Source: Escherichia coli (GTDB lineage: Bacteria; Pseudomonadota; Gammaproteobacteria; Enterobacterales; Enterobacteriaceae). From it: a stretch of DNA of 41,409 bases. The position numbers and the translations under genes are program-made. Position 1 is the stretch's first letter, and each line of letters starts with the position of its first letter. The notes under the pieces are model-generated. The model was not told where the DNA came from. It saw only the letters and a program-made list of their open reading frames with translations, and ran no database searches. The DNA lies in NCBI RefSeq assembly GCF_003334765.1, contig NZ_QOWT01000034.1; one strand, written 5' to 3'. Positions 3,160 through 4,858 of this stretch are shown here, piece after piece.

Positions 3160-3633
3160 TTAATGCAGCATACCTTCATTCACTTCAAAGAGTAATTCTT
3201 CCATTTGCTGGTACGCATTTTCGCAGCCCGGAATATTGAACAACACCATCAGGATCACCCATTTCAGATCATCCAGTTCGAACTCTGCGTTATCCAGCGC
3301 GAGCACTCGCTCTATCACCATTTCACGAGTTTCAAGGTTGAGCACCTGAATCTGCTCAAGGAAAAGCAGAAACCCACGGCAGCTGGCATCCAGTCGTTCA
3401 CACTCTTCCGGTGTATAAATACGCATGGAGAGAGGATCCGAGGCCAGTTGCATCGGTTCTGCCAACCCTTCCTGATAATCAGCAAGTTTTTCCAGCCATA
3501 GCAGGGCATTGTAGATATCTTCTCGCTCAAAACCTGCGTCGGTAAGATCCTGTTCAAGTTTGTCTTGATCCACACGCAACTCAGCTTCTGTGTGAATATA
3601 GGTTTCAAACAAATACATTAGTACGTCGAACAT
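3160..3633 (-). CDS. smg: Smg protein (DUF494, 157 aa)
   Basis: ORF 3160..3633 minus; [30 protein letters not shown] recognised. Confidence 0.85.
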
Positions 3634-4729
3634 GGCATGCCCTCCTCAATCGGACATAGCCGCCGGGTACAGCTGCGATCCATCCTGCTAACTCCAGTTC
3701 GAGTAGTTGAGTAACTACCTCTGGCACAGGTTGGCCGGCACGTTCAGCGACGACGTCAACAGGTGTTACCTCATCTCCTACGTTAGCCAGGAGCTCAGGA
3801 AATGGCAATGCCACGTCTTGCTGATCTGGTGAATAAAATGAATTTTCAGGGGCGTCTGGCAACCAGTGCAATCCAAATTGCAAGTTTTCCAGAATTTCTT
3901 CCGGTTCCGTCACAAGAATCGCACCTTGTTTTATTAACCAGTGAGGCCCTTCGCTTCCCGGATTCCCTATTGGACCTGGCAAGGCAAAAACTTCTCGCCC
4001 CTGCTCAAGCGCACAACGTGCTGTCACCAGCGAACCACTACGCAAAGCCGCTTCCACCACCAGTACACCTTTACTTAGACCACTGATAATGCGATTTCTT
4101 CGTGAGAAATTGTAAGCAAGGGGTGGAACATCGAGGGGAAATTCCGAGACGAGAGCGCCCCCCTGTTCAAGCAGACTGGCAGCCAGTCGGGCATGACGGC
4201 GGGGATGAATGGTATTAAGTCCATTCCCCAATACAGCAATGCTGACGCCATTTACCTGTAAGGCTGCTTTATGCGCTACACCATCGATTCCACGCGCCAG
4301 TCCACTCGTAATTGTCACTCCACGCGTCGCCAGAGTTTCGCAAAATAATCGTCCCCATCGCTCGCCATACCATGAATGCGCCCGACTCCCCACTACGGCA
4401 AGCTGAAATGAATGCAGCGCGTGCAGTTCTCCTTCAACAAACAGTGCGCCGGGGTAATCTGTCGTCGCCAGAAGTTGAGGAGGATAAAATTCGCTGTCCG
4501 CAGGAATTAAATGATGGTTGGGTTGCTCCAACCAACAAAGTGAGCTTTCGATACTCTTTCGTGGAAATGAAAGAAAGCGTTGTGCCTGCCGCAATGTAAG
4601 CCCTGTTTGCTGCAATACAACCGCATCAATATGCGACTGTTTTGCCACCCAGTGAGCGATACGGACCATATCATCGCCGTACAAGCTGCTGATACTCATT
4701 AAACGCAGCCAAATTTCTGTATCGACCAT
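3605..4729 (-). CDS. dprA: DNA processing protein DprA/Smf (374 aa)
   Basis: ORF 3605..4729 minus; Rossmann-like DprA core; 3' end overlaps smg start by 29 nt. Confidence 0.9.
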
Positions 4730-4858
4730 CCTTATCTCCCTGCCATAAGCAGCCTTAGCAATCTTTGCGATTGGTCAGTGATGCTGTCAATCAGAGGGGG
4801 ATTTGTCTAGAATAGAAGAAATAATCTTTCTAACTCCTGAACACATCTCTGGAGATTT

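What the first reader, a model, noticed from the sequence alone, without database searches (positions are those of the whole stretch)
3605..4858. Divergent dprA / def promoter region and the 29-nt smg-dprA overlap
dprA (-) and def (+) start 129 bp apart. A plausible def promoter (TGTCAA, 17-bp spacer, TAGAAT near 4786-4813) is visible by eye. dprA overlaps smg by 29 nt, implying translational coupling of a competence-associated gene with an uncharacterised DUF494 gene.
Basis: inference. Interest (0 to 1): 0.25.

Follow-up and report, generated by a model that had tools for sequence, protein, structure and literature searches.

The report
E. coli dprA–smg overlap, def promoter
This is the ordinary, already annotated dprA-smg / def-fmt region of the E. 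coli chromosome, but the last ~180 bases of dprA are almost frozen across species, most likely because they also hold a promoter and leader for the next gene, smg.

Summary
dprA (3605..4729, -) and def (4859.., +) start 129 bp apart, and dprA overlaps smg (3160..3633, -) by 29 nt. The window is E. coli core chromosome, one mismatch in 1341 nt from K-12 MG1655.

The def promoter is well supported by conservation. TAGAAT (4808-4813) and GATGCTGTCAATC are invariant in 79 Enterobacteriaceae sequences and persist in much more distant relatives. The best -35 register is CTGTCA with an 18-nt spacer (4/6), not TGTCAA with 17 (2/6). TGTCAA is the reverse complement of a perfect TTGACA, which may serve dprA.

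The 29-nt overlap is identical in 78/78 Enterobacteriaceae species loci and three more distant Enterobacterales. Other lineages range from an 8-nt overlap to a 40-nt gap.

Translational coupling is not implied. smg has its own strong, predicted-accessible GAGGAGG site, and smg survives in symbionts that lost dprA.

Unexpectedly, the last 68 dprA codons (3811-3634) are nearly invariant at synonymous sites: 12/68 vary against 300/306 elsewhere. The block stays 86% identical where dprA is a pseudogene. Best reading (unproven): an internal promoter, TTGCCA-17-TAACGT, plus leader for smg-yrdD-tsaC-aroE. I could retrieve no TSS data.

The parts
3160..3633 (-). smg CDS (DUF494 family protein, 157 aa)
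   Evidence: ORF. NCBIfam NF002897 equivalog, 1-157/157, 292.7 bits against a 191 cut-off. RefSeq annotation. N-terminus [14 protein letters not shown] in all 81 sequences compared.
3605..4729 (-). dprA (smf) CDS, 374 aa
   Evidence: ORF. NCBIfam NF008007 equivalog, 701.8 bits. PDB DprA relatives align to residues ~78-359. It evolves fast: 62-98% identity, median 70%, among Enterobacteriaceae, against 94% for Smg and 93% for Def.
3605..3633 (-). 29-nt dprA/smg overlap; encodes the DprA tail ...HVRRTNVFV* and Smg MFDVLMYLF
   Evidence: Exactly 29 nt in 78/78 Enterobacteriaceae loci and in L088-L090. Other lineages end DprA soon after PGGYxR, giving an 8-, 4- or 1-nt overlap or a 2- or 40-nt gap.
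3641..3647 (-). smg Shine-Dalgarno GAGGAGG, 7 nt upstream of the ATG; in the dprA frame it is read as the tandem rare codons AGG AGG
   Evidence: Sequence. Invariant in 81 sequences. Predicted unpaired probability 0.7-1.0 for GAGGA.
3634..3811 (-). 178-nt block under synonymous-site constraint, inside the last 68 codons of dprA
   Evidence: Third-codon positions vary at 12/68 sites, against 300/306 in dprA codons 1-306 (Fisher p=1.6e-47) and 122/147 in smg (p=2e-20). Entropy profile. Sharp 5' edge at 3811/3812. It is 86% identical to E. coli in L083, where dprA is a pseudogene and smg itself is only 72% identical.
3780..3808 (-). candidate internal sigma70 promoter for smg: -35 TTGCCA (3808-3803), 17-nt spacer, -10 TAACGT (3785-3780); predicted TSS ~3773
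   Evidence: PSSM 9.4 bits; coordinates verified. Both hexamers are invariant in Enterobacteriaceae while spacer positions 3797/3796 vary. Hexamers are 6/6 in L083, L088-L090 and the Vibrio-like L084, and TAACGT is 6/6 in L086. The spacer sequence varies at constant length. No TSS evidence.
4730..4858 (.). 129-bp dprA-def intergenic region
   Evidence: Length is 127-131 bp in 78 species loci. Conservation map.
4784..4813 (+). def-fmt promoter: -35 CTGTCA (4784-4789), 18-nt spacer, -10 TAGAAT (4808-4813); predicted TSS ~4820
   Evidence: Only hit of the promoter scan; PSSM 9.6 bits. GATGCTGTCAAT and TTTGTCTAGAATAG are 100% conserved in 79 sequences, with a variable spacer at 4793-4797. Both elements persist (-10 as TAGAAT or TACAAT) in L086, L088-L090, L084 and L083. 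Homology of the plasmid-borne def copies starts at 4781, 3 nt upstream of the -35.
4761..4790 (-). candidate dprA promoter: perfect -35 TTGACA (4790-4785), 18-nt spacer, weak -10 AAAGAT (4766-4761); predicted TSS ~4754; shares its -35 bases with the def promoter
   Evidence: PSSM 9.2 bits. The whole 4759-4792 stretch is conserved within Enterobacteriaceae. The -10 part is not conserved outside that family, and TTGACA is lost in L083, where dprA is dead. Inference only.
4759..4783 (.). Enterobacteriaceae-specific conserved block with inverted repeat CAATC-N5-GATTG (4759-4773) and a TGCGA half-site (4766-4770)
   Evidence: Not conserved in L083, L086, L088-L090 or L084. Function unassigned.
4735..4740 (-). 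dprA Shine-Dalgarno GGGAGA, 5 nt from the ATG
4851..4854 (+). def Shine-Dalgarno GGAG
   Evidence: Conserved.
4859..5368 (+). def CDS (peptide deformylase), first gene of def-fmt(-rsmB)

Best explanation
This is the standard E. coli aroE-tsaC-yrdD-smg-dprA <> def-fmt-rsmB locus.

(1) def-fmt is transcribed from a sigma70 promoter: CTGTCA (4784-4789), 18 nt, TAGAAT (4808-4813), giving a ~39-nt leader with a GGAG ribosome site.

(2) dprA probably has a weak promoter of its own, placed back-to-back.

(3) The 29-nt overlap is an Enterobacterales-specific state. DprA reads 7 codons further into smg than its closest non-Enterobacterales relative in this sample, L086, where the overlap is 8 nt. The smg start and its own strong GAGGAGG site lie inside dprA.

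(4) smg, and with it yrdD, the essential tsaC and aroE, is probably expressed mainly independently of dprA. The proposed source is an internal promoter (TTGCCA-17-TAACGT, 3808-3780) with a ~140-nt leader embedded in the last 68 codons of dprA.

That DNA would then have two jobs: encoding the DprA C-terminal winged-helix domain, and acting as promoter and leader for smg. Two jobs would explain why it is almost invariant even at synonymous sites.

Shown here: the coordinates, the conservation, the synonymous-site constraint, and the persistence of the block in one dprA pseudogene. Inferred: all three transcription start sites, and that the block's function is promoter plus leader.
For: Identity of the locus:
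- Gene identities and geometry.
- Present in 5426/5426 complete E. coli genomes.

def promoter:
- It is the only scan hit in 3000-5500 and scores 9.6 bits.
- The hexamers are invariant in 79 sequences while the spacer varies.
- They are retained out to a Vibrio-like locus and in a symbiont.
- The def copy on ~870 plasmids begins 3 nt upstream of the -35.

Overlap:
- 29 nt in 78/78 loci and in L088-L090.
- Other lineages have 8-, 4- or 1-nt overlaps or 2- or 40-nt gaps, with a shorter DprA C-terminus.

Independence of smg:
- SD GAGGAGG is invariant and predicted unpaired.
- smg is retained without dprA in L087 (708-kb genome), in L092, and beside a dprA pseudogene in L083.
- tsaC downstream is essential, and aroE depends on read-through from upstream (PMC2685093).

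Internal element:
- Third positions vary at 12/68 sites against 300/306 (p=1.6e-47) and 122/147 in smg.
- The edge at 3811 lies 3 nt upstream of TTGCCA.
- The hexamers are kept while the spacer sequence drifts at fixed length, out to L084 and L086.
- In L083 the block is 86% identical to E. coli despite 24-31 stops in every frame of the former dprA and a frameshift inside the block. smg there is 72% identical, 44% at third positions.
- Many of the frozen codons are non-preferred ones (TTG, CCA, GTA, GGA, ACA). That argues against selection for codon optimality; read directly from the sequence.
Against: - No transcription start site data could be retrieved for any of the three proposed promoters.
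- PSSM scores of 9-10 bits are common: 74 sites in this window on both strands.
- TAACGT matches TATAAT at only 3/6.
- A promoter explains about 30-40 nt of constraint, not 178 nt. The remaining 140 nt have no demonstrated function.
- The 3811 edge also coincides with the boundary between a variable linker and the DprA winged-helix domain. The sharp edge is therefore partly a protein-level effect.
- The pseudogene test rests on one genome (L083). The two genomes that lost dprA completely are ~25% GC and retain only the SD-proximal bases.
- The proposed dprA -10 is weak and not conserved outside Enterobacteriaceae.
Confidence: 0.6

Rival explanations
1. dprA-smg(-yrdD-tsaC-aroE) is one operon driven from the intergenic promoter, and Smg synthesis is translationally coupled to DprA through the 29-nt overlap. 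Ribosomes either re-initiate after terminating or unfold the smg start as they pass.
For: - Same strand, and the overlap is absolutely conserved in Enterobacterales.
- The two genes are tightly juxtaposed in every lineage sampled.
- dprA-smg-topA are co-transcribed in Neisseria meningitidis (PMC5817196).
- Terminating ribosomes can re-initiate at nearby upstream starts (my own knowledge of work by Adhin and van Duin; not checked here).
Against: - smg has a strong SD of its own, predicted single-stranded, so no unmasking is needed.
- The stop lies 29 nt downstream of the start, far from the usual 1- or 4-nt coupling geometry.
- The geometry is not conserved between lineages.
- smg is kept where dprA is lost.
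- An essential gene (tsaC) downstream is hard to reconcile with dependence on a dispensable competence-type gene. dprA is absent from the TraDIS essential-gene tables that were held, and it evolves fast.
Confidence: 0.2
2. The 178-nt frozen block is mainly a structured or factor-bound RNA element rather than a promoter: a leader, an sRNA, an sRNA target or a processing site. It would control smg and the downstream genes.
For: - The constrained length (178 nt) is far more than a promoter needs.
- The block persists in a dprA pseudogene.
Against: - No Rfam family matches at E<=10, apart from a chance snoRNA hit elsewhere.
- Folding energy is ordinary: z = -1.25 and -1.10 for the sense strand, +0.89 for the antisense.
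- In the only variable patch (3722-3701), the hairpin predicted for E. coli alone is not maintained. For example, 3713 varies freely against an invariant 3708.
- There is too little variation elsewhere in the block to test covariation.
Confidence: 0.15
3. The conserved intergenic core is a symmetric bidirectional promoter, or a shared transcription-factor site. TAGAATA (TAnnnTA) would supply a -10 on both strands (TATTCT on the minus strand), giving divergent starts ~18 bp apart. Alternatively, dprA is driven by a Sxy-dependent CRP-S site.
For: - TAGAATAG is invariant, and the minus-strand hexamer TATTCT matches 4/6.
- An 18-bp spacing of divergent starts is the commonest bidirectional arrangement in E. 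coli (PMC12825309).
- CRP-S sites were predicted at Enterobacteriaceae promoters of competence-gene orthologs, a set in which dprA is listed (PMC1635313).
- A TTTGCGA half-site sits at 4764-4770.
Against: - No usable -35 exists for the TATTCT start; the best match is 0-2/6 by my reading of the sequence, and it is absent from the top PSSM hits.
- The CRP-S candidate has only one half-site. The other half, AGTGA, matches TCGCA at 1/5.
- That candidate is centred 44.5 bp from the dprA ATG. This is incompatible with class II activation unless the mRNA is leaderless.
- The 4759-4780 block is absent outside Enterobacteriaceae even where dprA is intact.
Confidence: 0.1
4. Programmed +1 frameshifting at the tandem rare codons AGG AGG (3646-3641) moves ribosomes from the dprA frame into the smg frame, just past the smg-frame TGA. 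The product would be a DprA-Smg fusion.
For: - The geometry works. In the dprA frame the sequence reads TTG AGG AGG GCA. In the smg frame it reads TGA GGA GGG CAT GCC ATG.
- AGG-AGG is a known +1 shift-prone sequence (my own knowledge: Spanjaard and van Duin 1988; not checked here).
- The only polymorphism at this site (G/A at 3647) keeps Leu in one frame and a stop in the other.
Against: - There is no evidence of a fusion product.
- The sequence is fully explained as the smg SD.
- The database proteins that combine the WHD_DprA and DUF494 domains are singletons, as expected from sequencing errors (P0020 and P0086).
- It would explain a few bases of constraint, not 178.
Confidence: 0.03

Closest known systems
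E. coli def-fmt (fms-fmt) operon and its upstream divergent genes smf (dprA) and smg
   Same: It is this locus: one mismatch in 1341 nt from MG1655, with the same annotated boundaries. From memory, Meinnel et al. 1993 (J Bacteriol 175:993) mapped the operon's transcription start and described two upstream ORFs in the opposite polarity.
   Different: Nothing differs for the genes. I could not retrieve the mapped start to compare it with the predicted ~4820.
Neisseria meningitidis dprA-smg-topA operon (Hovland et al. 2017, PMC5817196)
   Same: dprA lies immediately upstream of smg on the same strand, followed by a topoisomerase-I-type gene. In E. coli that gene is yrdD, which has only the Zn-ribbon part. 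Co-transcription was shown by RT-PCR, and a promoter was predicted inside dprA as well.
   Different: E. coli has a 29-nt overlap and a truncated topA-like gene, followed by tsaC-aroE. The 29-nt overlap was seen only in Enterobacterales among the lineages sampled; Neisseria loci were not examined.
Translationally coupled overlapping gene pairs (ATGA / TAATG type)
   Same: Same-strand overlap of a stop with the next gene's start region, with a ribosome site embedded in the upstream gene.
   Different: The overlap is 29 nt rather than 1 or 4. The downstream gene has a strong, accessible SD, and it survives loss of the upstream gene.
Intragenic promoters that constrain synonymous sites of the host gene
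   Same: -35 and -10 hexamers at 17-bp spacing are kept while the spacer sequence drifts, and synonymous variation is strongly depleted.
   Different: The constrained stretch (178 nt) is several times longer than a promoter. No TSS is known to me for it.
Symmetric bidirectional promoters (PMC12825309) and Sxy-dependent CRP-S competence promoters (PMC1635313)
   Same: Divergent genes 129 bp apart, a TAnnnTA -10, and a TGCGA half-site upstream of a competence-gene ortholog.
   Different: There is no -35 for the symmetric partner. Only one CRP-S half-site is present, and it is at an unsuitable distance.

Membership tests
sigma70 promoter (def-fmt) | -10 hexamer of the TAnnnT type | tested here: met
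   TAGAAT at 4808-4813, 5/6. Invariant in 79 sequences. TAGAAT or TACAAT in distant loci.
sigma70 promoter (def-fmt) | -35 hexamer 16-18 bp upstream of the -10 | tested here: met
CTGTCA at 4784-4789, 4/6, 18-bp spacer. The bases are invariant.
sigma70 promoter (def-fmt) | Primary transcript 5' end ~7 nt downstream of the -10 | not testable with these tools
   The TSS tables held were truncated or absent, and the original paper is not held.
Translationally coupled gene pair | Upstream stop overlapping or abutting the downstream start, on the same strand | tested here: met
   29-nt overlap in 78/78 loci.
Translationally coupled gene pair | Downstream start lacks an independent, accessible ribosome binding site | tested here: not met
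   GAGGAGG lies 7 nt upstream of the ATG, with unpaired probability 0.7-1.0.
Translationally coupled gene pair | Downstream translation depends on upstream translation | not testable with these tools
   This needs a nonsense mutation in dprA and a measurement of Smg.
Intragenic sigma70 promoter (for smg) | -35 and -10 hexamers at 16-18 bp spacing | tested here: met
   TTGCCA (5/6), 17 nt, TAACGT (3/6); 9.4 bits. Weak as a bare match.
Intragenic sigma70 promoter (for smg) | Hexamers conserved beyond what coding requires, while the spacer sequence drifts at fixed length | tested here: met
   Third positions vary at 12/68 sites against 300/306.
Intragenic sigma70 promoter (for smg) | Element persists when the host gene decays | tested here: inconclusive
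   Met in one genome: L083, block 86% identical, dprA a pseudogene. Uninformative in the two ~25% GC symbionts.
Intragenic sigma70 promoter (for smg) | Primary 5' end downstream of the -10 | not testable with these tools
   No TSS data could be retrieved.
CRP-S (Sxy-dependent CRP) site | 22-bp site with core TGCGA-N6-TCGCA | tested here: not met
   TGCGA at 4766-4770 is followed after 6 nt by AGTGA, which matches 1/5. The published site lists are not held.
Symmetric bidirectional promoter | -10 elements overlapping on opposite strands (TAnnnTA), with divergent starts ~18 bp apart | tested here: inconclusive
   TAGAATA is present and invariant. No -35 for the minus-strand partner and no TSS data.
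Known cis-regulatory RNA (Rfam) | Match to a covariance model | tested here: not met
   No relevant hit at E<=10 in 3000-5000.

The most novel reading that the evidence does not exclude
The last 178 nt of dprA (3811-3634) would be a previously undescribed cis-regulatory element embedded in a coding sequence. Beyond a promoter, it would be a leader bound by a protein or RNA, possibly Smg itself. It would set expression of smg-yrdD-tsaC-aroE and so tie a retained 'competence' gene remnant to essential tRNA-modification and translation genes. This would also explain why Enterobacterales keep the dprA 3' end even when DprA is lost.
Probability: 0.15. Interest if true: 0.55.

Novelty: new member of a known kind. 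Interest (0 to 1): 0.3.

Why it matters
The finding as written is reference-genome annotation and changes nothing. Two points have some value.

First, it corrects a common shortcut. A long, perfectly conserved overlap need not mean translational coupling. Here the downstream gene has its own strong start signals and outlives the upstream gene in reduced genomes.

Second, there is a ~180-nt stretch of coding DNA frozen at synonymous sites directly upstream of smg. It is a concrete, testable candidate for the promoter and leader that feeds an uncharacterised but widely retained protein (Smg), the essential t6A enzyme TsaC, and AroE. Anyone deleting or recoding dprA in E. coli should expect polar effects if that stretch is touched.

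Tried and rejected
- **TSS evidence.** I searched the supplements of Cappable-seq (PMC4782308), ROSE (PMC10301672), Kim 2012 (PMC3415461), the Rend-seq annotation (PMC11092163), the bidirectional-promoter paper (PMC12825309) and Shigella M90T (PMC7132871). All were truncated or empty for this locus. Thomason 2015, Sinha 2009, Meinnel 1993 and Li 2014 are not held.
- **CRP-S site for dprA.** Only one half-site is present, at an unsuitable distance. Rejected as a demonstrated feature.
- **Known RNA family.** None found.
- **Unusual RNA folding of the block.** Not seen on either strand.
- **Hairpin in the variable patch 3722-3701.** It is not maintained by covariation.
- **Overlapping ORF as the cause of the constraint.** Every other frame on both strands has stops inside the block. 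By my reading, the TTG start of the 41-aa antisense ORF is not conserved, and the 25-aa antisense ORF has no SD.
- **Recent horizontal spread.** Rejected, because the adjacent smg varies normally at third positions.
- **Block remnants in genomes that lost dprA entirely (L087, L092).** These are ~25% GC, and nothing is recognisable beyond the SD region.
- **A higher-scoring internal promoter-like site.** TTGCCA-18-TTTTAT (3862-3833, 10.2 bits) lies in the freely varying linker and is not conserved.
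Full report
**1. What is there**

The window around the finding is E. 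coli core chromosome. Window 3100-5400 is 100% identical to several E. coli chromosomes and is present in 5426 of 5426 complete E. coli genomes. Window 3560-4900 differs from K-12 MG1655 at one base in 1341. This gives the mapping MG1655 (NC_000913.3) = window + 3,428,831.

The ORFs are smg 3160..3633 (-), dprA 3605..4729 (-) and def 4859..5368 (+). RefSeq annotates the same boundaries. NCBIfam equivalog models match all three, full length and above their cut-offs.

The numbers in the finding are therefore right: 129 bp between the dprA and def start codons, and a 29-nt dprA/smg overlap (3605-3633).

**2. The def promoter**

As a consensus match alone, the promoter is not more than chance. The scan finds one promoter-like site in 3000-5500, against 3.0 +/- 1.5 in shuffles. 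A rough PSSM of my own, with frequencies from memory, gives it 9.6 bits, and 74 sites of >=9 bits occur in the 41-kb window on both strands.

TGTCAA matches TTGACA at 2 of 6 positions. One base to the left, CTGTCA with an 18-nt spacer matches 4 of 6, and that is the site the scan reports.

Conservation is what makes the promoter credible.
- I fetched 80 Enterobacteriaceae species loci with Smg as the query.
- In the 78 loci that include def, the intergenic region is 127-131 bp long.
- In an alignment of 79 sequences, GATGCTGTCAAT and TTTGTCTAGAATAG are 100% conserved, while the spacer at 4793-4797 varies.
- Both elements persist in Erwiniaceae-level relatives (L088-L090), in a more distant lineage (L086), in a symbiont (L083), and in a Vibrio-like locus where the divergent neighbour is a LysM gene (L084). 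The -10 is TAGAAT or TACAAT in these loci.

There is also a natural deletion test. About 870 plasmids, 596 of them from Klebsiella, carry a def copy 95.6% identical to this one. Its homology begins at window 4781, 3 nt upstream of the -35, and ends 8 nt after the def stop. Plasmid copies of the E. coli def are already described (PMC12690207); the boundary is my observation.

The predicted start is ~4820, with a ~39-nt leader and a GGAG ribosome site (4851-4854). From memory, Meinnel et al. (1993) mapped this operon's start.

**3. The dprA side of the intergenic region**

TGTCAA is the reverse complement of a perfect TTGACA on the dprA strand (4790->4785). With an 18-nt spacer and AAAGAT (4766->4761) it scores 9.2 bits. 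It predicts a start near 4754 and a ~25-nt leader carrying GGGAGA (4740->4735).

The whole 4759-4792 stretch is conserved within Enterobacteriaceae. It includes the inverted repeat CAATC-N5-GATTG and a TGCGA half-site. However, 4759-4780 is not conserved outside that family even where dprA is intact, and TTGACA is lost in the symbiont whose dprA is dead.

I treat this as a plausible weak dprA promoter that shares its -35 bases with the def promoter. That is an inference.

Cameron and Redfield (PMC1635313) predicted Sxy-dependent CRP-S sites at Enterobacteriaceae promoters of competence-gene orthologs, a set in which dprA is listed. Their site lists are not held. Here only one half-site is present, and it is centred 44.5 bp from the ATG. 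A functional CRP-S site is therefore not shown.

TAGAATA has the TAnnnTA symmetry of bidirectional promoters (PMC12825309). The minus-strand partner, TATTCT, has no -35.

**4. The overlap**

The overlap is exactly 29 nt, with an ATG start for smg and a TGA stop for dprA, in 78 of 78 Enterobacteriaceae loci. The same holds in three more distant Enterobacterales, where Smg is ~76% identical.

Elsewhere the junction differs:

| Locus | Junction |
|---|---|
| L086 | 8-nt overlap |
| L091 | 4-nt overlap |
| L093 | 1-nt overlap |
| L084/L085 (Vibrio-like) | 2-nt gap |
| L094 | 40-nt gap |

In those lineages DprA ends a few residues after the conserved PGGYxR. In Enterobacterales it continues as ...[13 protein letters not shown], 7 codons beyond the L086 stop. 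Solved DprA structures align only to about residue 359. The 29-nt overlap is therefore a lineage-specific C-terminal extension of DprA over the start of smg.

**5. Does the overlap imply coupling?**

Every lineage has a purine-rich SD-like stretch upstream of the smg ATG. In E. coli it is GAGGAGG, 7 nt from the ATG. It is invariant and predicted unpaired, with probability 0.7-1.0 for GAGGA in three sequence contexts. No masking structure exists that translation of dprA would have to open.

smg also outlives dprA.
- A 708-kb symbiont genome keeps smg-tsaC-aroE-def-fmt without dprA or yrdD (L087).
- Another ~25% GC locus has def <> smg-tsaC-aroE (L092).
- In Pantoea sp. Nvir the former dprA has 24-31 stops in every frame (L083).

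dprA evolves fast: median 70% identity among Enterobacteriaceae, against 94% for Smg and 93% for Def.

tsaC downstream is essential, and aroE depends on transcription coming through it (PMC2685093). The genes are packed 4-28 nt apart. A constitutive promoter upstream of smg is therefore to be expected.

Co-transcription of dprA-smg-topA is shown in Neisseria (PMC5817196), and some coupling cannot be excluded. But the overlap does not imply it.

**6. The unexpected feature**

I aligned 79 sequences from def to yrdD. The last 68 codons of dprA (window 3811-3634, plus the overlap) are almost invariant at the nucleotide level.

| Region | Third-codon positions that vary |
|---|---|
| dprA codons 307-374 | 12 of 68 |
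| dprA codons 1-306 | 300 of 306 (Fisher p=1.6e-47) |
| smg codons 11-157 | 122 of 147 (p=2e-20) |
| yrdD | 158 of 180 |

The 5' edge is sharp at 3811/3812. Inside the block only a short patch (3722-3701) and about ten isolated sites vary. Many of the frozen codons are non-preferred ones, which argues against selection for codon optimality.

I rejected several explanations.
- **Recent horizontal spread:** no, because smg beside the block varies normally.
- **Overlapping ORF:** no, because all other frames have stops within the block.
- **Known RNA family:** none.
- **Unusual folding:** no; z = -1.25 and -1.10 for the sense strand, +0.89 for the antisense.
- **Hairpin in the variable patch:** not maintained by covariation.

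The block begins 3 nt upstream of TTGCCA (3808-3803). Then come a 17-nt spacer and TAACGT (3785-3780), scoring 9.4 bits with a predicted start near 3773. TAACGT is the only TAnnnT in the block on that strand.

The variation pattern is what a promoter leaves. Both hexamers are invariant, while spacer positions 3797 and 3796 vary in Enterobacteriaceae. In more distant loci the spacer sequence drifts (8-13 of 17 identical) at constant length, while the hexamers stay 6/6 in L083, L088-L090 and the Vibrio-like L084. TAACGT is 6/6 in L086. In L088 the Ala codon became Asp (GCT to GAT), yet the T that starts TAACGT was kept.

The strongest single piece of evidence is L083. There dprA is a pseudogene, with a frameshift inside the block itself. 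The block is 86% identical to E. coli and 54% GC in a 40% GC locus. The functional smg next to it is 72% identical, 44% at third positions. Something other than DprA coding is being preserved.

**7. Limits**

This rests on one pseudogene genome, a weak -10, and no TSS. A promoter also explains only part of 178 nt. The 3811 edge coincides with the start of the DprA winged-helix domain, so first- and second-position conservation there is expected anyway.

I put about 0.5 on the internal promoter, and about 0.6 on the overall picture given under best explanation. A small possibility is +1 frameshifting at the in-frame tandem rare codons AGG AGG, which double as the smg SD. It would give a DprA-Smg fusion, and I have no evidence for it.

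**8. Verdict**

The finding as submitted is correct and ordinary, and it is already in the reference annotation. Its promoter call is sound after a one-base register shift. Its coupling inference is weak.

The frozen 3' end of dprA is the only part worth following up. It is a new example of a known kind (an intragenic promoter and leader that constrains synonymous sites), unless public TSS maps already list it.

Noticed in passing
window 4781-5376; L095 2501-3095: [quoted passage not shown] Homology starts 3 nt upstream of the def -35 and ends 8 nt after the stop. On pL22-1 the -35 reads CTGTTA and the -10 is intact. Plasmid-borne E. coli-type def is described in PMC12690207; the fragment boundaries are my observation.
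   Followed up: partly
window 3605-4729 versus 3160-3633 and 4859-5368: DprA is only 62-98% identical (median 70%) among Enterobacteriaceae species in which Smg is a median 94% and Def 93% identical. This suggests relaxed or diversifying selection on all of DprA except its last 68 codons.
   Followed up: partly
L087 (AP014521, 708-kb genome), L092, L083 (Pantoea sp. Nvir): Reduced symbiont genomes keep smg next to tsaC-aroE and def-fmt while losing dprA and yrdD. Smg (DUF494) has no solved homolog by sequence. It therefore looks like a housekeeping protein, possibly translation-related, rather than a competence protein.
   Followed up: partly
window 3641-3646: The smg Shine-Dalgarno is read in the dprA frame as the tandem rare codons AGG AGG. 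The smg frame has a stop (TGA or TAA in all sequences) immediately before it. A +1 shift there would fuse DprA to Smg. Two singleton database proteins (P0020, P0086) combine the WHD_DprA and DUF494 domains; these are probably sequencing errors.
   Followed up: no
window 3161-3220 and 3131-3160: The last ~60 nt of smg are unusually conserved (mean entropy 0.11-0.17 bits). The 28-nt smg-yrdD spacer that follows is highly variable (0.93 bits). The conserved part may be another embedded signal for yrdD-tsaC.
   Followed up: no
window 4759-4783: An Enterobacteriaceae-specific invariant block contains the inverted repeat CAATC-N5-GATTG and a TTTGCGA half-site. It is absent from Erwiniaceae-level and more distant relatives. 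It looks like a family-specific protein-binding site, and no regulator is assigned.
   Followed up: partly
window 3772-3780: Just downstream of the candidate internal -10, the sequence reads AGGAG ATG AGG TAA. This is a start-Arg-stop mini-ORF at about the predicted transcription start, and it is invariant in Enterobacteriaceae. It may be coincidence.
   Followed up: no
window 2589-3131 (yrdD); L091 1164-2675: yrdD matches only the C-terminal zinc-ribbon part of topoisomerase I. In another lineage a Toprim/Topoisom_bac topoisomerase gene (503 aa) follows smg (L091), as full-length topA does in Neisseria (PMC5817196). yrdD may be a remnant or split-off piece of an ancestral dprA-smg-topA cluster.
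   Followed up: no
window 4859-4900: The first 42 nt of def are very conserved at the nucleotide level (mean entropy 0.13 bits), more so than typical coding sequence in this alignment. The cause may be translation-initiation constraints or part of the dprA upstream region.
   Followed up: no
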